Assembly: GCF_009914755.1 (NCBI RefSeq)
Contig: NC_060935.1
From: the human T2T-CHM13v2.0 reference genome, Homo sapiens
DNA length: 64,000 bases
Direction: 5' to 3' (one strand)
The notes below the pieces were generated by a model. It ran no database searches, was not told the origin of the DNA, and was given only the letters and a program-made list of their open reading frames with translations. The position numbers were made by a program, and so were the translations under genes. This document shows positions 23,115 through 52,270 of the stretch, in pieces. Within the stretch, counting starts at the first letter, position 1, and each line of letters starts with the position of its first letter.

Positions 23115-23217
23115 CTTCAGGTTGATATTGTGCTATAATCGTCACTGTCTGTCCAGCCCCCTTTAGTGCAGCAGCTGCCTGCTCGTGGGATGCACCACGG
23201 AGGTCAATGCCATTCAC
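23115..23217 (-). CDS. DLG2: Internal coding exon of DLG2 (PSD-93), C-terminal half of PDZ3
   Basis: The minus strand reads tcctctctttcag|GTGAATGGC...CAACCTGAAG|gtcagt, with canonical AG/GT ends. 103 nt = 34 codons + 1 nt, translating [45 protein letters not shown] and YQPE match DLG2 rather than DLG1/3/4 as I recall them. The rest of the window is therefore DLG2 intron. Confidence 0.97.
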
Positions 23218-23721: not shown

Positions 23722-24052
<331 letters not shown>

Positions 24053-25305
24053 GCCTTGTTTTAAAATATATACTTGACTGTCCTATTTCTCATATACAAT
24101 TCTAGAATAAATTCTGACAAAATGAAATAAAGAGTGCCTGGAGTTTATTTAGCTATTGCTAACTCCCATTTTGGGTCCCATACTGAAAGAGAAACAGAAA
24201 TGTCTTAAAAGCTCCAAACTCTGCCAGGGTGAAAGGCATTCTTAACTCAAATTTAATAAGAAGAAAATGCTAAAATTTTTCTTGAATCAGTTCAGCCTAA
24301 GTCAATATAATGTAATTAATAAGTGCTCTCCAATGACAGAGTTCTCTGTCTGCCCCAGAAGAGGGACAATGAGTGGAGCACAAAGGGAGACAAGATAAGC
24401 CCTCAAGAAGTTTTTCTGATGAACACACAGTAAGTATGGGTTTCTAACCTACAAAAAACTAACTTTTTGCAGATGATAGCAGAATTCTGCTTCCTTTTAT
24501 TCATGGGGCAGGTTGATATGGGCTATGAAAGAAGAATAAAGAACTGATTAGCTTATACACGTTCAAAATGTATAATCGTATTTTGCTTTTCATCAATCCT
24601 ATTTGAGAATGACATTGGGTGGCAGATGGGGGGTTACTACTTTGTTTCCCCATCAGGCCTGGGACATCCATACGCTTAAATTCCACATCATGATCCTCTC
24701 ATAATAACTTCGTTAACATCTCCTTATTCTCTTTTGTAATTTTCCTTGCCTCATCCCTGGCTTTCTAGTGTGGTGAACTCCTTACAGAAAGCATTGATTA
24801 CATGGTAACATTGGGGAGTCCACTGAGCTAGGCCTGATCTGGCTGTGCCACTCTCTTGCTGACTGTCATACTACCTGAGACTCAATTTTCTCCTCCCTCG
24901 GAGGGAAGAGACTGTTAGGCTATATGAATCTAAAGCCCCCTTAAAGTATAAAATTCCAGATCTATTCTTGAGTTATTCTTGCTAGATATAGTCATTTCAG
25001 AGACTGTCTAGGCTATTGATGAGTTAGAAGTATGAATCTGCTGGCCAGAAGAGACAGGAAAGGTAATTAGATCCAGGCTACTGCCTACAGGAGGCTGAAT
25101 TGCACAAACTTCACATGCCAAATAATTTATTCTCTTGTCAAACAGTTAAGGTTTACTTTTTATAAAAGAATAAAATGTGATCATGGCAAATAAATTCTGT
25201 TTCAGAAAGGTCTAAAAGGAAGAGGTAAAAGTCCCCTCACCATCTCCATTTCCAGTGGAACCACTTTTATGGATACTTTTTTCTTTTAGGATCATCTAAT
25301 ATTTC

Positions 25306-25311
25306 TTTAAT
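25306..25311 (-). terminator. ATTAAA polyadenylation signal of the SOCS6 retrocopy
   Basis: Plus-strand tttaat, 18 nt from the start of the T-rich poly(A) remnant. Confidence 0.75.
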
Positions 25312-25952
25312 CATAATTCTAGTTCCATAGGTTTTCATGTTATGGCAATTTGTACCTGAGTTTAATGACAGAAAAGGCAACAATTTCTAAATTGGTGGTA
25401 AACATTTCTTTACAATTTTTTAATGTAAGGCCATTTATTATAATAGGCAAACTATAAGATGAAAATGAAGGCAACAGATGAAACGAAGGCAACGGAAAAG
25501 CTCAACTTCTCACAACCAATAAAATTAGCACAACCTAAGAAATAATTTAGAAAAAAGTGTTGTTAGAAGATATGTTGTAGATCTCCATTCCATTACCCAA
25601 GAGTATGCCAATTCATGATTCTAAATAAATCTTTTTAAAGTAATAGATTAAAAATTCATCTTCAGTGTATACGTAAATTCTGTGTTTTATCACACGGGTA
25701 TGTTTATTCAACACTATCTTTTGAAAATGGGCCATTTAAAAAGACATAGCAATTTCCATTCTGTTTAATGCATAAAAATCACAGTGGATAGCAGCAAAGG
25801 ACAGGGCGGGGCGGGAGGGGGGGCAGCATTGAGGAGAATTTGATAATTCACATTGTGATTATTCTGCACATTGAGGAAAGGTAATTCACACTTCTAAAAC
25901 CTCAAGACTTCCCTTTTTAAATAACCAAAATAAACCCAAGACACCTTGCTGA

Positions 25953-26267
<315 letters not shown>

Positions 26268-28083
26268 ACTGATGACTCTTTTATACATAAAAGTGAAATA
26301 GTTATGGCAGCAAAAGATTTTGATGGCAATGAAAGTTTGTAAACTGTGTTTCAATCTCTTTTTCTTATTCCCAAAGTGCAAGATGCAGGGTTCTCAGTCT
26401 TTCAGTAGTGCTTCTCCTGTAAATAATCCTTCATTTTGTTTGGCAAAGGCAGTTTCTGAATTAAGTCTATTCTGGTATACTGACATAAAACAAAATGACA
26501 CAGGTACTGCAACGAGTGTACCTGCATGAACCGAGACACTGGCTTGGCCAGTCTGACAAGGTAAGTTGCAGATCCAGGCAGCTGAGACCTTGAATAACAA
26601 AAAGTTCCATTTTCAGAGTCCCTGACTGAATGCTCAATTAGATCAACTATGGATGTATGCCCTTCCACATTTGGCTGTTCATAAAAGCTAAACCTACCAT
26701 TTGAGTGCCCAAGTCTAGTGTGAACTGTTTTACCATGGGAGCGAAAGCTCAAGCTTAAAAGGTAACAGTCTTCAGAACTGTCCCAATCAAGGAAAGAACC
26801 ATCTGGCAGGACTGCTAGCTTCCCTTCTGCCTCCCAACATGTGATTGGTCCCCAGTACCATCCTTGTTTTGCAAGATCTTTTTAGCTCCTCTGTAAGGCT
26901 TGTCACTACCATGGGACCACTACTTTGCACTGAGACATAAACTCTTGCAACACCAGGAGCAGAGTTAAAATCAAAATTCAAATGACAGAGCATACTTTCA
27001 GCCATGTGGGCTTCTGTGCCAGTAAGTCCACTGAAGTTCCTTTGGATTTGATTATTTTGCATTGGAGGTAGCAATGGTGAGAGTGGAGGGACATGATGCG
27101 GACCCACTCTGGGGCTCTGCAACATGACTCCCGTGGTGCCAGTCAACAACCCATTCATGGACTGATCCACAAAGATCTCTGGGGCAACAACTAGGTTCTG
27201 GTCTGCCTGACTCTCATCTTCGGGGAAAGAGCGCCCTCCCACTTGAGAAGGAACCACAGAGACTTCCATGGTAGAAGAACTGTCCAGACAATAGCTACTT
27301 GATCCTTCCAAAGGACACATCCCCTCATCTAAAGGCACAGTATACTGAATGTAGTCCTGAGGCAGAAGTCCAATAACGACAGGCACATGTTCATCCAGGC
27401 GAAGATACAGGTCTCCGTTCTGAGAAGCCGAGCTTTTCAGTGAATTGGCTTGTTCCTGGCACGCGGTCTCAGACTGAAGGTCGTGGAAATCCTTTCGGAC
27501 GCCATTCAGGGGTGGACTCGGACTGGAAGAGTGGCCTTGACTCTCACCTCCATCTTGATGCACGTCTCCTCAGAGTTTGTGGGTCGAAGAGGCCATGGCA
27601 TGGGACTGCAGTGATGGCTGCGGAGGGAGGTGGCCTTATCGGCCTCTGAGCTCTCACGGCTTTAAAGACTATCGGTGCTGAGGAGGAGGAGAAGGTGTCC
27701 TCATCGGCAGAGCTCCCAGAGGGTTTGCCCGCCTTGCCTTTTGGCTTCTGTTTGGCAGAAAGCTGCCTTTTTAACGTATCCATCAAGCTTTTGCTTTTTG
27801 ATCTGTCTTTTTTTTCTTTTCCACCTTTTTCGTCTTTCCTGTTGATATCGCAGTTGGCCATATCTTTACCATAGCAGCTACCAAATTAGGAATTATCTTT
27901 CCAAAGTCACTGGCTAGCGATGGTTGTTGTACTACCATGAAATCAGTTTATTTTTTACTTTTATTCAAGTTAAAGGATTTCCAGAAGGTTTTAAAACTGA
28001 TTTTCTTCATTATGACTAGTTACCTAATCCAACGGATGAAAATACTAGGGGATTCACTTCTGGCATGATGGAATGAGATGGTC

Positions 28084-28200
28084 AGCCGGGCGCGGTGGCT
28101 CACGCCTGTAATCCGAACACTTTGGGAGTTCGAGGTGGGCAGATCGCTTGAGCCCAGGAGCTCAAGACCAGCTTGGGCAACATAGGGAAGAGCCCGTCTC
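28084..28200 (+). mobile_element. FLAM_C/AluJ left-monomer fragment embedded in the SOCS6 retrocopy 5'UTR
   Basis: gccgggcgcggtggctcacgcctgtaatcc...gatcgcttgagcccaggag...gggcaacatag...cccgtctc, with no A-tail and no TSD. Confidence 0.9.
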
Positions 28201-31200
28201 CGAAGGTGGCCGGGCTACGCTTCCTCTCCCAGGACCGGCGTGACTGCTGCGCTCGCCTTTCCTCCAGCAAGTCCTTCTCCCGCCTCCTTCCTCCTCCTCC
28301 AGCTTGTGTGTACTTTTTAAAGATTCACTATATGCACATGCAAGCACATGACTTTATTTCTCTTGCTCTCCTTACATACATATTTTAATATATTATTGCC
28401 TTTTTATTTAACTGAATAGATCATAACATATATAATTTGACAGCTTTTGTTTTGCTTTTCATTGAGCAATGTATCTTGGACATCTTTCATTATCATATCA
28501 GCTCATATCATTCTACCTTTTTAATGAAAGCCCAGTATTCCATGTTATGGATGTGCCAGCACTTTTCAGTGAGATCCCTCTTGATGTTGTTAAGGTTGTT
28601 TCCAGTTTTTCTGCTGCTATGAACACTTATAAAAGTGTTTCTGAAGGATAAGTTCCCTGGAAAGACTTCTTGGTGAAAGGGTATATGCATTACTTGTTTT
28701 TTTTTAATTTGCTATTGCACATTTTCAAAATGATTATTTATTCATTAAACATATAGGAACTAATAAATAAGAAAACAAAAACAGGCCATAATCGAATTGC
28801 CCAGATAGTGTACTGATATGAAAAATAAAATTAATATACCCACATCATATCCATATATCATAAGTAAGGCACAATGAAAAGACATACAATTAAAAGGCTC
28901 CCTTACCTCCTATTATTCTCTACAAAGGTAATCATGTGAATGGTTTCTTGTATATACTACTAATTATTTTTGTTGTGAATATAAGCCACTTTATAAAATA
29001 TATAATTTAAAATTTTATACAAATAAGATCATGTTCTACACCTTGATTTTTTCCACTTACTAATATACCTTAGTCAGCTTTCTAATTTACATATTTCTTC
29101 CGATTAATCTCATTCTTTTTAATAGCTATGAGTGTTCTATTATTCAATGAAAAACAATTTGTTTTACCAGTGCATGGCTGATAGACAGCTAGGTAGCTTC
29201 ATTATTTTGTTATTATAAACAATGAGGTAATAAATATCATCTAACAGTAAGTTGTTGAGTAAAGGATATGAATGTCAAATTTTGATAGGTATCGCCAGAC
29301 TGCCTCTAAAAGTGTAGTATTAATTTATATGCCAACAAATAATATACGATTTTCAACTTCCTCACACTCTTGTAATAGTTACATATACCTCGACATTTGA
29401 CTTTTTCCATTCTGATAGGTAAACAATTTTATTTTTAAATTTTGTGTTTCTTCAATTATAAGGTTAAGCATCTTCTTATATGTTTATTGGATATTTGAAT
29501 TTATTTTTACATAAAATCCCTTTTTATTTATTTTGCTTTTTTTGTTGTTGTTGTTTAGGCAGTTTGCTCTTTCAAAAAATTATCTGCAAATGAAGAATGT
29601 TATTGTTCCTTCTTAGGTAACTATTACAAATATTCTTAGTTTGTTATTTGTACTGTTGTATTTTAACTTTTCTTTCGTACATTATTTCATATCATAGATA
29701 GAGTGAATTTTTAAACATTTAGTGAAGTCTTATTTAATTTCCTTTTCTTTTTTGGCTCTTAAGTTTTAGATTATATTTTCTCTTCACCAATCTATTTAAC
29801 AAATTACCCATGTTTTCCTGTAGCAAACTATAGTTTAATCTTTAGCCATTTAATCCTTAATCAATTGGAATATACTTTAATGTTTGATGTGAGAACCAAG
29901 TGAACAGCCACAATTTCTTGGACGTTTCCTTTACAGCATAAGATTTCTACATGTTTCATCATTCTAGTCATCCTCTGAATTTTTTTTCAGTGCATTAAGA
30001 AAACTGCATGGAAAAATGGGAAGGAACAAAGGATTTGCAGTTAGACAAAACGGGTTAAATCTCAAGTCTACCTAGGTTTCCTAGGTAACCTGGGGAAGTC
30101 ACTTAACTTCTTTGAACCTTAGCTTCCTTTTCTATAAAATGAGTATACCTACCTACCTACCTACCTATCAGGGCTGTTGCAGGTATAAACAGGCATTCAG
30201 CAAATAGTATCTATTATTATTGTTTTAGCATTTCTTCAAAGAGCTGTGATTATAAGTGATGAAATAAAATCTAATAGAAATTAACCAACACAGAGTGCAA
30301 TATATTAGTTACTTCATGCTTTTTTTAAAAAGAGGAACACAACATTTTAGGAGTAGAAGAGCCTTAGAAACTTGTTTGTCTAGCACTTATACATTAGAGA
30401 TGAACCCCGTAAAGGAAGGGACTGGCCCAAAGTCATACTGAAGTTAGCATAGGGATAGGACCAGCCAAGCGCTCCTCTTGCCAAGCCCAGAGTTCTTTCT
30501 AGTTTAGCAGATGTGCTCTAATATGTGAGTTTGTTTCTTTTTCACTGGACCAATAATAAAATCTTGTTCATTTTAGGCCCAAATCTACATGGGCCTCTGC
30601 ATTTTTGGAGAGGTTTGTTGCTGCTGTTATCCTGAAAAATATCATATTGCCCTTGTTCCTGTTGATTTCTTCCCTGGTTTTAGCAAACATGTTCTTCTCC
30701 AGTCTTTCAAACTTTTCAAGATCACTTTGATTCTTATTTCTATCCCTGAGGTTTCAGTTTTTATCAGTAAACCTTGAACAAATAACATTTTCAAGTATTC
30801 ACAGTTTACATCATTGATATGACACTTTAAAATACCAAGTGTGACACAGCCTCATATATTTACTATTGGTTTTTTTTTTGTTTTTTTTTTGCTTCAGTTT
30901 GAACTTTTTCACCTGGATGCATGGATTCTGAGAGTTCTATTTAGAGTCCTCTCCTCTCCAAGAAAAATTCTTTTCTTGAAGCATACATTCTCAAAGATTG
31001 GATGCCATTAATTATTGTTGAGATTAATAATAATAATTGTTAACATTAATTGAGCATCAGGTATGTACATCAGAGATAGTTATATATTATTTCATTTAAT
31101 CCTCAGGAGGGTGGGATTATTTTTCCCATTTTACTGATAAGAAAACTAGGCTCAGAGACTCACTGACTTACTCAAATTTATATGGTGGAAAGAGGCTAAG

Positions 31201-47901: not shown

Positions 47902-50819
47902 TAACATTATTAATATCACTAAAAGAAAATTTTAATTTCTACTTTTTAATGTAAATAGCATGTACAATTTCAATTTTTTTCTAGAAGAGTATTTCCTCAC
48001 TAAAAAGTATGTTTAGTGTGTAAAATTCACGACATTTGCTGTTTTGATTAAGAAAAATAATGTTAAAATAAATCTTCCTGGTTCTTTTTCCCAAAATAGT
48101 TTTAGGAAGTTTAAATTTGAGTTAAATGTTGTGAAAATTTTAGCCTCAGGAAATGTGAAAAGGGACATTAAAGTCTTATGTATTGTTGGCTATCAGGGAA
48201 AAGAGTAAATCTTTGACCATTCTAAAAGAACAACATTGGAGTTGTCAGCTAATGAGCTGAAAGTTGTTCTGTGATATATTACTGAGCAAAAGATTAGAGG
48301 AAACTAGTATAACAGAGAGAAAGAGAAAGAGAGCCCTATTTTTTCCCCTGCTGTATATGTGGCAGAGACTGAGGACTGGGAGTGTGTAGAAGTGTGAGAG
48401 AAAAATGTGGGAGAAGTGTTTAAAGTGTTCCAAGGAAACTAAAATGAAGACAAGAATATGTATGCTGGGGTTCAGGTTTTCAAAACAAGCTAGCTTCTAC
48501 CTAGAACTTGTCATCAACACCCTTTACTAGTAGCTTTTGAACTTCCATCTGTCTACTGAGCTGGAAACACTCTTCTTCGTAGCCACATGTCATGCTGCCA
48601 CCCTTGCCTTGGGAAGCTCAATTCAAATCCTACTTCTCCTATGAAATTCTCCCCAGTTACAGGGCATTTTCTAGAAGAACTGTTATTTCCTCTATCCTTA
48701 ACACTAAAGCAAAATACTTCTATGTCTTCCAACTCTCCCATCCCAAGTGTTTTATAGATGGTTTGTGGTTGTGTTTAACAGTAATAGATGGGCTAAGAAA
48801 TATATTTGTCCATCTGATATGGCCTCAAGACTATCTAGTCCACATTTATTGAACATCTACAATGTGCCAGGGGCTGTGTCATGTCATGTACTGAAATCAA
48901 TAAAAATAAGACTTGGGTTTGGTATGAAGAAGATCACAGCCTTATGTAGCCATTTTTGAGATGTATAAATGAATAATCCTATGAAGCACTTATGATGTTT
49001 CTGAAATTCTTTCCTCATAAGGTTTACTGGGAATCCTATAATCCCACCATCTGAGATTCACTGTTTTGGTCTTAAACTTAGTAGATATACTGTGAAAATC
49101 TCGATATAGTTAGTTAAAATAATGCTTTGCCTGTTTCCTAACATTCAACCTCAGTGTGAACTCCTTCATCTGATTTCTTTCACTGAAGGACAGACAAGAA
49201 AGAGCATGAGGACACTAGACCCCTAGGTACCATAGAGTGTGAGGAGGGACCAGAATTGTGGGAAATGTACTTGAGGTCAGCTTTTATCTGGCAGGAGTTG
49301 CACAATGTTACAGAGTTGAGGAGATGGGATGATGACCAGAAGGCCAATGCCCATTCCTCTTAGAGTTGAAGCTCATTCTTAGAGCCTTGAGCACTGGGAC
49401 TGTTGGTGGCACTGTCAAAGAAGGCAGGACCACTTGCTTTGTGTCAGGCACCATGATGGGTGCTCTATACCCCTTGGCACATTTAACCCCCATAACAATC
49501 CTTTGAAGCAGGAGTCATTGGCTCCATTTTATAAATAAGAAGACTCAGTTTGGGGAAGCTAAGTACTTGTCCAAAGTTTGCACATCTAGTTGATAGTAAA
49601 GCAGGGTTCAAGCCTCTTGCTGGTTCCAAAGCCATACTTTTTCATCTTCTTAACCTTTGAGAAATAAAGGAATCCAGTTACCCTCAAAAGGCAGGTACTA
49701 CTTCAAGGGAAATACTTTTGAATGCAAGTCCATTTGAGGACCAGCCTCGTGCCGTATCAGAGGAAGACAATTTCAAAGTGAGAACAAATTTCATTTCCAA
49801 CATTTTCAAGAGCAGAAACAAAGATTGTTTATAGGATCCTCTGAGATTTGATAAAAAAATTCCATCCTTTGCAGGAATGCTTTCTCCCAAGCCCTCTAAA
49901 TGCCTGCAGATGGTCAGCTGGCTCCTGCTTGAGTAACTACAATGCAGTGACACAAGGCCTTTTCACTCCACCCACAGTGCTTAGCACAGTGAACAGACAC
50001 ATTAAGTCCTCAGTAACATCAGAAAATGGAGACTGAGTAAGGTTGAGTGACTTGTTCAAGATCAGTTAGGCGATACATGGTTTAGTATTTAAAACTAAAC
50101 CTGTTACGAACTCTTGCTTTTAGATGATGCCTCTTTTGGTTCTAATGGCATTTTCTAGGGCAACACAAATAAGTCTACCTTCATTTCTGCAGAATGGTCT
50201 TGCAAGTGCTTTATCAACAAAAACAACAGCAGCAGCAGCAACAACAACAAAAATAACAGCCAACATTTATCAAATCCTTCCAGGTGCGAAATGTTACACT
50301 AAACACCACATGTATTATCAATTTCTCCTCATAACAGCCCTATACGTAGACACAGTCATCATTTTATTGATAAGAAAACTGAGGCACAGAGAAGTTAAAT
50401 AAATTGCCGAAATTCACAATTACAAACAACAGAGTCAGGATGCAGACTCACTTTTTTTTCTTTATGTGCACTTTTATTTTTACATTGTAGAGAAAGTAAT
50501 GACTTCTAAAAAGAGTATGTAAATGAGTATAATATAAGCCCATCAGACCAAAAAAATATTAGAACGTATTTAAAAGAATCAGGATTTCTATAAAACAATA
50601 AACACCTAGATCATACATTCTTTTGGACCAAATGGCAAGTGCATATACATACAAGGCAAGTACTGGCACATCAGACGTATCAAAAACACCTTCTTTGATG
50701 CAATCGCTTAGGAATTGTAAAAAATAAGTATCATTCAGCATCTGGATGCTAATAATAAAAGCGATAGAGGCTAAATAAACAGGGCCGTTACTCTACTCCC
50801 TTTCCTATTTCCTATTTTT

Positions 50820-52270
50820 AGGAATTCAAGTTTATTCAAAAGGTTTATATATAATCCCAAAACTGCTATTTCTCTTCTTCTATAATTTCAGAATGATAGC
50901 TTTACACAACTTTAAAGCTTGAGCTTCTTCTGAATTCCCAAAGTGTTTCTGTGCTCCTTTACAAATGGGCCACATCTTCAAGGGTCAGCTTTACCTGTGT
51001 AAGGTCTGCAAGACCATTCTCTCTCAGATACGAGGAACACTGAAGAATACATCATTCATTCCATAGAGGCCCTTAATTATGTGGAAACTGAATGCGCTCT
51101 CCTAGGATTCTCTAAAATGCTTTCTGTTCAATCTGTTACAGATGGGCCAATGGCCCAAGAAGTATAACCTTTCATTTTCATAATTTCATAAGCACTGGCA
51201 ATCACTTCTTTGTGGACATTTTCCCCCTTGCTCTAGATCTTGATCAATTCCTTTATCTGAGTTTAGATCCTTCAGAGGGACACCAGCAATGTTCACTCCA
51301 CTCCACACAGGAACACTTGAGTCCCCATGCTCTCCAAAGATCCACCCATGGCAGCTTCCAGAGTGGATTCCAAGCACTTGCACAGTCAAGAAATGGAAAT
51401 GGGCAGTGTCCAGATTACAGCCATTTCCAATAATATGGGTTTTGAAAAATGTACTCAATTTCTAAGCTACATAAATTAAGATATCCACTGGACTGGAAAC
51501 TATCAATTTGCAGCAGGACTATATTGAGTAATATTAGACATCATTAATTTAACGATGGCCACATTTAGACTGACTAAATTAAAGTGTTTCACCTTTTTCC
51601 TGGCATGCACCTGATGTGATAATCACTAGGTTGGAGATTGCAGAGATGAGATAATCTTTGCTGGAAGCACTATCTGGCAGTTTTAGGAAAAGACTGCCAT
51701 GTTTAAGATCCATTGTCTCACACCCTTCAATTCACCATTATCAACAGCTACAAAGGCAACTTCATCCCTCAAGTCTTTTAATAACATGGTGATTGCACGG
51801 GCCATGCTAACTGATCCAGTTCTTATAATGGAGACCTTACTGTGGTGAATAACCTCCTCTGAAGCAAAATTCTCAATAAATTCATTCTGGATAGTTACCA
51901 TCACGTAACCAGAGGTGGGAAGGTTGGTTAGGGGCCAGCTGACCCTGTGATGTGCGTTCTCTGTTGGTGACACAGATTTATCCTGGGGCCAAGAAAATTT
52001 ACTCCCATAGTGCCTACGCTCCAGCTGGACCACAGAACTCCTGCAGCCCACCTTGGGGATACACACACAAGAGGTGGATGGAGCAGAGAATGGAAGAAAG
52101 TGGTGGGCAAGCTGCAGGTTGAGCTTGCTGGGGCAAGCCGAAAGAACCTGTTTGAATGTTCAGTGCCTTTCACTTTACTTCAGCTATTGCAGTTACCAAG
52201 CAAGGCCATGCTTAGCTCCCTGCACACAGGCCTCATGGGGGCCTCTGGAAAGTGCTTCTGATGTCTGCTC
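50820..52270 (-). pseudogene. Processed pseudogene of the LDHAL6 (LDH A-like 6) family
   Basis: ATG at 51901 ([26 protein letters not shown]), internal [27 protein letters not shown], stop TAA at 50912-50914 after ..KLKL, AATAAA at 50831-50836. It is intronless, with frameshifts and a TAG replacing the Trp of YVAWK. The 5' boundary is uncertain (52270-52390). It may be the annotated LDHAL6DP (unverified). Confidence 0.92.

What the first reader, a model, noticed from the sequence alone, without database searches (positions are those of the whole stretch)
27361..28303. SOCS6 retrocopy keeps a CpG-rich 5' end while its 3' end has decayed: candidate retrocopy-born intragenic promoter or DMR in DLG2
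Seen: manual CpG counts per 480 bp are 3 (26401-26880), 4 (26881-27360) and 20 (27361-27840), plus 16 in 28081-28300, giving a sharp step near 27370 within one insertion of one age. In the SH2/SOCS-box part, about 7 parental Arg codons became Cys/Trp/His/Gln (ITRW>ITCW, VRD>DWD, DRY>DCY, SRL>SQL, VRS>VHS, CRF>CHF, IRQ>LCQ; parent from memory), so that part had CpGs and lost them. Known: methyl-CpG decays in the germline, and intronic retrocopies can become CpG-island promoters or imprinted DMRs (PPP1R26P1 in RB1, NAP1L5, MCTS2, INPP5F_V2). Inference: the 5' part stayed unmethylated in at least one germline and may act as a regulatory element.
Basis: partly seen in the sequence, partly recalled or inferred. 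Interest (0 to 1): 0.8.

Follow-up and report, generated by a model that had tools for sequence, protein, structure and literature searches.

The report
SOCS6 pseudogene with uneven CpG decay
A dead, roughly 30-50-million-year-old copy of the SOCS6 gene sitting in a DLG2 intron has kept more CpG sites at its front end than at its back end, but ordinary pseudogenes elsewhere in the same genome show similar unevenness, so nothing here yet points to a hidden promoter or imprinting mark.

Summary

The object is one processed SOCS6 pseudogene, and it is longer than annotated. It spans window 28303 to about 25290 on the minus strand. It contains about 103 nt of exon 1, an Alu-derived alternative 5'UTR exon, and exon 2. 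A later Alu insertion splits it.

Non-CpG divergence is uniform along the copy: 3.55, 3.27 and 2.85%. Against the chr18 parent, the copy retains 26 of 43 parental CpGs in the 5' 940 bp and 8 of 34 in the rest. The step therefore does not simply mirror parental composition.

However, the 5' part still lost about 40% of its CpGs, including 6 of the 13 inherited from the parent's true CpG island. A UCSC-style caller finds no island. No transcription start is annotated in that part, and no common CpG-island or ZFP57 motifs occur there. Of 32 control GAPDH and HSP90AB1 pseudogenes, 3 are equally heterogeneous.

Verdict: ordinary uneven decay of a CpG-rich relic. A promoter or DMR role is untested and unlikely.

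Side note: an annotated DLG2 exon (25241-25323) starts inside the pseudogene's tail.

The parts
28201..28303 (-). Retrocopy 5' end. It is a copy of about 103 nt of SOCS6 exon 1, which lies in the middle of the parent's CpG island. It holds 8 CpGs and retains 7 of 13 parental CpGs.
   Evidence: matches C18:70504058-70504160 at 85%; the parent has a GT donor right after this stretch; the parent stretch lies in a 1.4-kb island (GC 0.72-0.86, o/e 0.8-1.03); retention counts.
28044..28200 (-). Copy of an alternative SOCS6 5'UTR exon made of an antisense Alu fragment plus 37 nt of unique intron-1 sequence. It is not a later Alu insertion. It holds 8 CpGs where the parent now has 3.
   Evidence: matches C18:70525554-70525708 at 88%, extending beyond the Alu. 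AG and GT flank it in the parent; 3/3 parental CpGs are kept, and 5 further CpGs stand where the parent has CA or AG.
26268..28043 (-). Copy of SOCS6 exon 2 (annotated as LOC100420800). The start codon is at 28010 and the stop at 26404. The reading frame is disabled by in-register stops at codons 21 and 42 and by frameshifts.
   Evidence: 92% identity to C18:70539699-70541473. ORF map, indels and stops; the SH2 part matches SOCS6 structure 2vif at E = 7e-67.
27361..27840 (-). CpG-rich block within the N-terminal coding part. It holds 20 CpGs: 14 of 23 parental CpGs retained, plus 6 not present in today's parent.
25985..26268 (-). Alu inserted into the retrocopy after it formed. It has a 15-bp target-site duplication and 9 CpGs.
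   Evidence: parent coordinates overlap by 15 bp on either side of the insertion; flanking sequences and CpG count.
25290..25984 (-). Unannotated continuation of the retrocopy, derived from the SOCS6 3'UTR up to a proximal ATTAAA signal. It retains 1 of 5 parental CpGs.
   Evidence: homology with C18 runs to about window 25290; retention count.
25276..25289 (-). Short A-rich remnant of the poly(A) tail. It is followed by an imperfect copy of the sequence that lies just upstream of the retrocopy's 5' end, which is a target-site duplication of about 16 nt.
   Evidence: end of the alignment and both flanks.
25241..25323 (-). Annotated exon of other DLG2 transcripts. Its first 34 nt are SOCS6 3'UTR sequence. 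It has no AG acceptor but has a GT donor, and it ends in ATGGAGATG in frame with the PDZ3 exon at 23115-23217. It is probably an alternative first exon.
   Evidence: Hub annotation table; flanks and frames; the downstream exon matches DLG2 PDZ3 (2he2); extent of the retrocopy.

Best explanation
This is one dead processed pseudogene of SOCS6. It was copied from a three-exon transcript: exon 1, an Alu-derived 5'UTR exon, and exon 2 ending at a proximal ATTAAA site. It inserted in the sense orientation in a DLG2 intron and was later split by an Alu. By inference from 3.2% non-CpG divergence, the insertion happened roughly 30-50 million years ago.

The copy started with a CpG-dense front end and a CpG-poorer back end. 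Since then the front 1.0-1.1 kb has lost CpGs at about a third of the rate of the back end and about half the typical pseudogene rate.

The most likely cause is the ordinary regional unevenness of CpG decay. This is inferred, not shown. CpG-dense, GC-richer DNA tends to be less completely methylated and to deaminate more slowly in the germline, and sampling noise on 77 sites adds to the contrast. On this reading the CpG-rich block is an eroding relic of parental CpG richness and not a maintained CpG island, promoter or imprinting mark.
For: Structure:
- All three exon junctions fall on GT/AG sites in the parent gene.
- The poly(A) remnant, the target-site duplication and the 15-bp duplication around the inner Alu are.

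Same age throughout: non-CpG retrocopy-specific divergence is 20/563, 32/979 and 17/597.

Partial slowdown only:
- Retention is 26/43 against 8/34.
- Overall retention of 34/77 matches the 0.38-0.41 expected from 29 GAPDH pseudogenes of the same genome (pooled slope 19.9-21.4).
- The loss ratios are 11.0 for the 5' part, 31.7 for the 3' part and 17.9 overall. Whole-pseudogene ratios are 12.6-36.1 in 28 GAPDH copies and 13.3-26.9 in 8 HSP90AB1 copies.

Unevenness is common:
- The any-split permutation p is at or below 0.0235 in 1 of 8 HSP90AB1 pseudogenes and at or below 0.023 in 2 of 24 GAPDH pseudogenes. The GAPDH cases keep CpGs only at the 5' end.
- Among-locus overdispersion is 1.63.

Not an island and no sign of a promoter:
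- One search shows the largest block is 169 bp, and Alus give equal Gardiner-Garden patches.
- One search finds no common CpG-island or ZFP57 motifs.
- The hub table lists no exon or functional element in 27361-28303.
- Retained CpGs sit in higher local GC (p = 0.03-0.05). Mugal and Ellegren 2011 (PMC3218846; abstract and section 8 read) report that the CpG substitution rate rises with sperm methylation and falls with GC content.
Against: - Position (5' versus 3') still predicts retention after local GC is accounted for (p about 0.009), while GC adds nothing once position is known. GC context alone is therefore not sufficient.
- The 5' ratio of 11.0 lies below every whole-pseudogene control value, although it is a sub-part picked after the fact.
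- Two short stretches lost no CpG at all. In the Alu exon (28088-28202), by my reading of the alignment, 7 CpGs present at retroposition are all kept, while the parent's intronic copy keeps 3. In 27378-27520, 7 of 7 parental CpGs are kept. These could be protected footprints, although the longest-run test gives p = 0.10.
- The controls have fewer CpGs per copy (36-52), so they are less powerful than the 77-site test here.
- No methylation data were available, so the mechanism is inferred.
Confidence: 0.62

Rival explanations
1. The 5' about 1 kb is, or long was, unmethylated in at least one germline and acts as a retrocopy-born regulatory element in DLG2. It would be a weak CpG-island promoter or enhancer, or a differentially methylated region like CpG85 in RB1.
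For: - Retention is non-uniform at equal age: 26/43 against 8/34, Fisher p = 0.0014, any-split p = 0.023.
- Position remains significant given local GC.
- The Alu-exon piece keeps CpGs that the parent's intronic copy lost, 8 against 3 CpGs.
- There are 6 extra CpGs in 27361-27840 and none in 27360-26268.
- An annotated DLG2 exon that looks like a first exon starts 2 kb downstream, inside the same retrocopy, so the locus may be transcriptionally active in some tissue.
- The class exists. The RB1 CpG85 island lies in the PPP1R26P1 retrocopy (PMC3839921 and PMC4122923; abstracts and passages read).
Against: - 40% of parental CpGs are gone, including 6/13 in the piece from the parent's real island. 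The loss rate is about half the normal methylated rate and not near zero.
- No island is called by a UCSC-style caller.
- There is no RefSeq exon or functional element in 27361-28303 (hub table).
- There are 0 TGCCGC motifs and no GC-box, NRF1, E2F, CRE, ETS, YY1 or CTCF-core matches there.
- 3 of 32 ordinary pseudogenes are equally heterogeneous.
- The genome-wide screen for retrocopy-derived intronic islands by Rademacher et al. 2014 names neither DLG2 nor SOCS6 in its text or in the 5 supplementary files searched (a further file, file 1, could not be searched).
- Carelli et al. 2016 (PMC4772013, passages read) estimate that only about 3% of expressed retrocopies inherited a parental promoter.
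- No paper was found for SOCS6P1, for LOC100420800, or for DLG2 together with retrocopy and CpG island.
Confidence: 0.1
2. Pure chance plus parental composition. The whole copy has always been fully methylated and decays at one rate. On this reading the apparent step is sampling noise on a parent that was already richer in CpG at the 5' end.
For: - The parent is about 1.5 times richer in CpG in the 5' bins: 23 against 15 and 14 per 480 bp.
- The overall retention of 34/77 is exactly what controls predict.
- With the break point free, p is only 0.023, and 0.066 within exon 2.
- The longest run of retained sites gives p = 0.10.
- About 9% (3/32) of controls reach the same p.
Against: - The step in the copy is 5- to 7-fold (20 against 4 and 3), far larger than the parent's 1.5-fold.
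- The controls themselves show more low p-values than a single-rate model predicts (3/32 at or below 0.0235 against about 0.75 expected) and an overdispersion of 1.63. A single uniform rate is therefore not the right null for pseudogenes in general.
Confidence: 0.23
3. The 5' part is younger than the 3' part, for example through later gene conversion from SOCS6 mRNA or a second insertion. Alternatively, GC-biased gene conversion has been restoring or protecting CpGs there.
For: None beyond the CpG contrast itself.
Against: - Non-CpG retrocopy-specific divergence is the same in both parts, 3.55% against 3.27% and 2.85%.
- Weak-to-strong against strong-to-weak changes are 7 against 10 in the 5' part and 12 against 11 in the 3' part, so there is no GC bias.
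- There is one set of flanking duplications and one poly(A) remnant.
Confidence: 0.02

Closest known systems
Ordinary processed pseudogenes (L1-mediated retrocopies) of genes with CpG-island promoters, such as the GAPDH and HSP90AB1 pseudogenes examined here
   Same: - It is an intronless copy of a spliced mRNA with a poly(A) remnant, target-site duplication and broken frame.
- Its overall CpG loss per unit of non-CpG divergence is 17.9, inside the control range of 12.6-36.1.
- Uneven decay, often biased toward the 5' end, also occurs in the controls.
   Different: - It preserves an otherwise unlisted Alu-derived 5'UTR exon of the parent.
- It lies in the sense orientation inside a neuronal gene.
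- Its tail overlaps an annotated host-gene exon.
CpG85 in PPP1R26P1, the retrocopy-derived imprinted island and alternative promoter in RB1 intron 2. Also the retrocopy-derived intronic islands in ASRGL1, PARP11 and PDXDC1 (Rademacher et al. 2014, PMC4122923)
   Same: It is a primate-lineage retrocopy inside an intron of a host gene that carries CpG-rich parental sequence.
   Different: - Here no island passes a UCSC-style caller.
- No transcription start is annotated in the CpG-rich part.
- There is no ZFP57 motif.
- 40% of parental CpGs have been lost.
- Methylation is unknown.
- The locus is not named in that screen's text or in the supplements searched.
Imprinted mouse retrogenes with promoter DMRs in host introns: Nap1l5, Mcts2, Inpp5f_v2 and U2af1-rs1 (Wood et al. 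2007).
   Same: It has the same intronic retrocopy architecture.
   Different: - By recall, those retrogenes have X-linked parents, intact ORFs or expressed transcripts, and strong promoter islands.
- SOCS6 is on chromosome 18.
- This copy is disabled and has no annotated transcript of its own.
Internal first exons of mouse Dlg2 that give the short eta isoform: eta1, eta2 and exon 15a (PMC6389146; passages read)
   Same: The DLG2 exon at 25241-25323 looks like an internal first exon spliced onto a late PDZ3 exon. That would give an N-terminally truncated product.
   Different: - The human exon's first 34 nt come from a primate retrocopy, so by inference it cannot be orthologous to the mouse exons.
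- Whether it is a true transcription start was not shown here.

Membership tests
Processed pseudogene (retrocopy) | Colinear with a spliced mRNA, with introns absent | tested here: met
   Three parental exons lying 21 kb and 14 kb apart on C18 are contiguous in the window. Each junction sits at a GT or AG in the parent.
Processed pseudogene (retrocopy) | Poly(A) remnant after a polyadenylation signal, and flanking target-site duplication | tested here: met
   An ATTAAA lies 16 nt before homology ends, followed by a 14-nt A-rich remnant. An imperfect direct repeat of about 16 nt stands at both ends.
Processed pseudogene (retrocopy) | Loss of coding capacity | tested here: met
   There are in-register stops at codons 21 and 42, indels of 1, 1, 7, 1, 9, 1 and 1 nt, and 69 of 536 positions differ.
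CpG island | Gardiner-Garden and Frommer criteria: longer than 200 bp, GC at least 0.5, o/e at least 0.6 | tested here: inconclusive
   The interval 27361-28303 taken as a whole passes narrowly (GC 0.508, o/e 0.64). With 200-bp windows only patches pass, and ordinary Alus in the window pass equally.
CpG island | Called by the UCSC-style scoring (+17/-1) with the length, GC and o/e filters | tested here: not met
   My own implementation gives a best block at 28087-28255, which is 169 bp with 15 CpGs and is shorter than the 200-bp filter. Nothing is called in 27361-27840.
CpG island | CpGs protected from methylation-driven decay | tested here: not met
   17 of 43 parental CpGs have been lost. 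The loss ratio of 11.0 is about half the pseudogene norm of about 20 and not near zero.
Retrocopy-born intragenic promoter or imprinted DMR (RB1 CpG85 type) | A transcription start or alternative host transcript arising in the CpG-rich part | tested here: not met
   The hub's RefSeq table (64 DLG2 transcripts) lists no exon in 27361-28303. The only nearby extra exon is 25241-25323, which lies 2 kb downstream in CpG-poor sequence. CAGE data were not available.
Retrocopy-born intragenic promoter or imprinted DMR (RB1 CpG85 type) | Parent-of-origin or germline-specific methylation | not testable with these tools
Retrocopy-born intragenic promoter or imprinted DMR (RB1 CpG85 type) | ZFP57 binding motif TGCCGC, which by recall is typical of germline DMRs | tested here: not met
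   There are 0 matches on either strand in 25200-28400.

The most novel reading that the evidence does not exclude
The SOCS6 retrocopy has become a primate-specific internal promoter module of DLG2. On this reading its 3'UTR tail supplies the transcription start of an alternative first exon (25241-25323) that encodes a short, PDZ-less, eta-like DLG2 isoform. Its CpG-rich 5' about 1.1 kb, which lies 2-3 kb upstream, would be a partly germline-hypomethylated and possibly allele-specifically methylated control region for that start.
Probability: 0.06. Interest if true: 0.6.

Novelty: new member of a known kind. Interest (0 to 1): 0.17.

Why it matters
If the CpG-rich end were a real hypomethylated or imprinted element, it would add a primate-specific regulatory layer to DLG2, a gene tied to neurodevelopmental and psychiatric disorders. 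It would also be a second RB1-like case of a retrocopy creating an intragenic control region.

The evidence here points the other way. The pattern is what decaying retrocopies of CpG-rich mRNAs commonly show.

The practical value lies in three things:
- A corrected anatomy of the pseudogene. It is about 3 kb and not 1.8 kb, and it carries a fossil Alu-derived SOCS6 5'UTR exon.
- The observation that an annotated DLG2 exon begins in its tail.
- A same-genome calibration: about 20 CpG-dinucleotide losses per unit of non-CpG divergence, with roughly 9% of pseudogenes showing comparable unevenness. This can be reused to judge similar 'CpG step' findings.

Tried and rejected
- **Older chrX SOCS6 retrocopy as a test of sequence-intrinsic protection.** By my count from the table, this copy (C23:69959480-69963520, about 13-14% private divergence) keeps only 1 of 25 and 1 of 30 parental CpGs in the two parts, so it is uninformative. 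It was still useful as an outgroup.
- **LDHAL6DP in the same window as a local control.** It is too old, at 76-77% identity to its relatives.
- **Younger 5' part or GC-biased gene conversion.** Both are rejected by the uniform non-CpG divergence and the balanced weak/strong substitutions.
- **Local GC as the sole explanation.** It is not sufficient in a logistic model.
- **Rfam scan of 25000-28700.** No family matched.
- **Literature.** There were 0 papers for SOCS6P1, for LOC100420800, and for DLG2 together with retrocopy and CpG island. Searching DLG2 with imprinted, DMR and placenta gave 7 papers (6 listed), none of which by title or abstract concerns this locus. Reggiani et al. 2017 (PMC5518101, passages read) deals with promoters near exons 7-9, far from this locus.
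- **A wider HSP90 control set with HSP90AA1 as a second parent.** Copies that were more than 20% diverged from HSP90AB1 were therefore left out of the control, 4 of the 15 with a hit. Three further copies with fewer than 20 parental CpGs were not tested, and one locus gave no hit.
- **GAPDH copies dropped.** Five of the 29 GAPDH copies had fewer than 3 retained CpGs and were dropped from the any-split test.


Full report
**Observation.** The interval 27361-28303 has 39 CpGs, GC 0.508 and observed/expected 0.64. The 64-kb window as a whole has o/e 0.175.

**What the object is.** The window's own genome could be searched. The minus strand of 26268-28043 matches chromosome 18 at C18:70539699-70541473 with 92% identity. 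This is SOCS6 exon 2, and its SH2 part matches the solved SOCS6 structure 2vif at E = 7e-67.

The copy is larger than annotated, for the following reasons:
- Window 28300-28200 matches C18:70504058-70504160 at 85%. That stretch ends at a GT donor and lies inside a 1.4-kb CpG island, so it is part of SOCS6 exon 1.
- Window 28200-28045 contains the stretch masked as a repeat. It matches C18:70525554-70525708 at 88%, including 37 nt of unique sequence beyond the Alu, and the parent has AG and GT at its two ends. This 'Alu' is therefore an Alu-derived alternative 5'UTR exon carried in the retroposed transcript and not a later insertion.
- At the other end, the Alu at 25985-26268 is a later insertion with a 15-bp target-site duplication. 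SOCS6 3'UTR homology then continues to about 25290, 16 nt past an ATTAAA signal. A 14-nt A-rich remnant and an imperfect 16-nt repeat of the sequence found just upstream of the 5' end follow it.
- The reading frame (ATG at 28010, stop at 26404) is broken by stops at codons 21 and 42 and by several frameshifts.
- An older SOCS6 retrocopy on chrX served as an outgroup.

**One age.** With CpG-involved positions masked and the chrX copy used to polarise changes, retrocopy-specific divergence is:
- 20/563 (3.55%) in the 5' part of exon 2;
- 32/979 (3.27%) in the 3' part;
- 17/597 (2.85%) in the 3'UTR.

Weak-to-strong and strong-to-weak changes are balanced (7 against 10 and 12 against 11). A younger 5' part and GC-biased gene conversion are therefore both rejected. 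The pooled value of 3.2% suggests an age of roughly 30-50 million years. That figure rests on recalled primate substitution rates and is an inference.

Parental CpGs per 240-bp bin along exon 2 are 12, 11, 9, 6, 7 and 7. The copy has 8, 12, 3, 1, 1 and 2. Retention of parental CpGs by segment is:
- exon 1 piece: 7/13;
- Alu exon: 3/3;
- then along exon 2: 2/4, 6/12, 8/11, 3/9, 1/6, 1/7 and 2/7;
- 3'UTR: 1/5.

Pooled, retention is 26/43 upstream of 27361 and 8/34 downstream. Fisher p = 0.0014. With the break point left free, the best split is 27222/27186 (28/48 against 6/29) with permutation p = 0.023. Within exon 2 alone p = 0.066. The step is therefore not just parental composition.

Local GC predicts retention weakly (p = 0.03-0.05). 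Position still matters once GC is included (p about 0.009).

**How strong is the protection?** It is not strong.
- The 5' part has lost 17 of 43 parental CpGs, including 6 of the 13 inherited from the parent's real island.
- Expressed as CpG-dinucleotide loss per unit of non-CpG divergence (parent-versus-copy d = 0.0456), the ratios are 17.9 overall, 11.0 for the 5' part and 31.7 for the 3' part.

As a yardstick I took 29 GAPDH processed pseudogenes from the same genome.
- Their pooled ratio is 19.9, or 21.4 for the younger half.
- The per-copy range is 12.6-36.1 (28 copies), with overdispersion of 1.63.
- This predicts 0.38-0.41 retention at this divergence. The copy as a whole (34/77) fits that prediction.
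- The 5' part lies above the prediction (p = 0.003-0.012) and the 3' part below it (p = 0.05-0.11).

Eight HSP90AB1 pseudogenes give ratios of 13.3-26.9.

**Is such unevenness unusual?** I applied the same any-split permutation test to the controls.
- Among 8 usable HSP90AB1 copies, one reaches p = 0.0235.
- Among 24 testable GAPDH copies, two reach p of 0.023 or less and three reach 0.05 or less. Those copies keep CpGs only at the 5' end.
- In total, 3 of 32 ordinary pseudogenes are as heterogeneous as this one.

Uneven CpG decay, often favouring the 5' end, is therefore a fairly common property of retrocopies and not a mark of function. The controls have fewer CpGs each, so they are less powerful. 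Several GAPDH copies on chromosome 1 are probably duplicates of each other and so are not independent.

**Island and promoter features.**
- A UCSC-style caller that I implemented myself finds only a 169-bp block (28087-28255, 15 CpGs), which fails the 200-bp filter. It finds nothing in 27361-27840.
- Gardiner-Garden windows pass only in patches, as they do for ordinary Alus elsewhere in the window, for example 23746-24107 with 20 CpGs.
- In the CpG-rich part there is no TGCCGC, GC box, NRF1, E2F, CRE, ETS, YY1 or CTCF-core match. These motifs were recalled from memory.
- Rfam finds nothing.
- The hub's RefSeq table lists no exon or functional element in 27361-28303.

**Literature.**
- No paper mentions SOCS6P1 or LOC100420800, or combines DLG2, retrocopy and CpG island.
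- Rademacher et al. 2014 (PMC4122923) screened the human genome for exactly this class. They report 104 intronic islands with similarity elsewhere in the genome and 665 retrocopy-associated islands overall. Neither DLG2 nor SOCS6 is named in the text or in the 5 supplementary files searched; a further file, file 1, was not searchable.
- Carelli et al. 2016 (PMC4772013, passages read) put parental promoter inheritance at about 3% of expressed retrocopies.
- Mugal and Ellegren 2011 (PMC3218846; abstract and section 8 read) show that CpG substitution rates rise with sperm methylation and fall with GC content.

**Points that still favour something more.**
- Two short stretches lost no CpG. In the Alu exon, by my reading of the alignment, all 7 CpGs present at retroposition are kept, while the parent's intronic copy kept 3. 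In 27378-27520, 7 of 7 parental CpGs are kept. The longest-run test gives p = 0.10.
- The 5' ratio of 11.0 is lower than any whole-copy control value. However, best-split sub-parts of the controls reach similar retention contrasts (split counts).

**Side finding.** The only other annotated DLG2 exon in the window, 25241-25323, begins 34 nt inside the retrocopy's 3'UTR tail.
- It is preceded by GA and no pyrimidine tract, so it has no acceptor. A GT donor follows it.
- It ends in ATGGAGATG, in frame with the downstream exon 23115-23217, which encodes the end of PDZ3.
- It therefore looks like an alternative first exon whose start lies in retrocopy-derived, CpG-poor sequence.
- Mouse Dlg2 has several internal first exons that give a short eta isoform (PMC6389146, passages read).
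- I could not see which transcripts carry the human exon or what supports them.

**Verdict.** Its size is within what ordinary processed pseudogenes show. The block is not an island and has not been protected like one, and nothing marks it as a promoter or DMR. The most likely account is an eroding CpG-rich relic of the SOCS6 5' end. The regulatory reading remains possible but needs methylome and transcription-start data.

Noticed in passing
window 25241-25323 (minus strand): An annotated exon of other DLG2 transcripts starts 34 nt inside the SOCS6 retrocopy's 3'UTR tail. It has no AG acceptor but has a GT donor, and it ends in ATGGAGATG in frame with the PDZ3 exon 23115-23217. It looks like a retrocopy-derived alternative first exon for an N-terminally truncated DLG2.
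   Followed up: partly
window 28044-28200; parent C18:70525554-70525708 (L005:1501-1655): The retrocopy preserves an Alu-derived (antisense Alu plus 37 nt of unique sequence) alternative 5'UTR exon of SOCS6, flanked by AG and GT in SOCS6 intron 1. This is fossil evidence that the spliced form existed when the copy was made.
   Followed up: partly
window 25290-25984 and 28044-28303: The annotated pseudogene span (26268-28043) covers only the middle of the retrocopy. The 3'UTR-derived part beyond the inserted Alu and the two 5'UTR exon pieces are unannotated.
   Followed up: yes
G000 C23:69959480-69963520 (L003/L004): A second, older SOCS6 retrocopy lies on chrX at 73-80% identity. It is interrupted by two insertions, starts at exon 2, and has almost all its CpGs gone.
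   Followed up: partly
window 23746-24107: This is the most CpG-dense element of the window: an Alu with 20 CpGs (o/e 0.88), about 530 bp from the DLG2 exon 23115-23217. It is probably just a young Alu.
   Followed up: no
window 50600-52250 (LDHAL6DP): This old LDH-like retrocopy is 76-77% identical to intronless relatives on C15 and C12, and it matches exon by exon a gene at C11:18.56-18.58 Mb.
   Followed up: no
GAPDH pseudogene loci L030, L041, L043 (also L034, L025): Older GAPDH processed pseudogenes keep their few surviving CpGs only in the 5' part (for example 6/18 against 0/18). This hints at a general 5' bias of CpG survival in retrocopies.
   Followed up: partly
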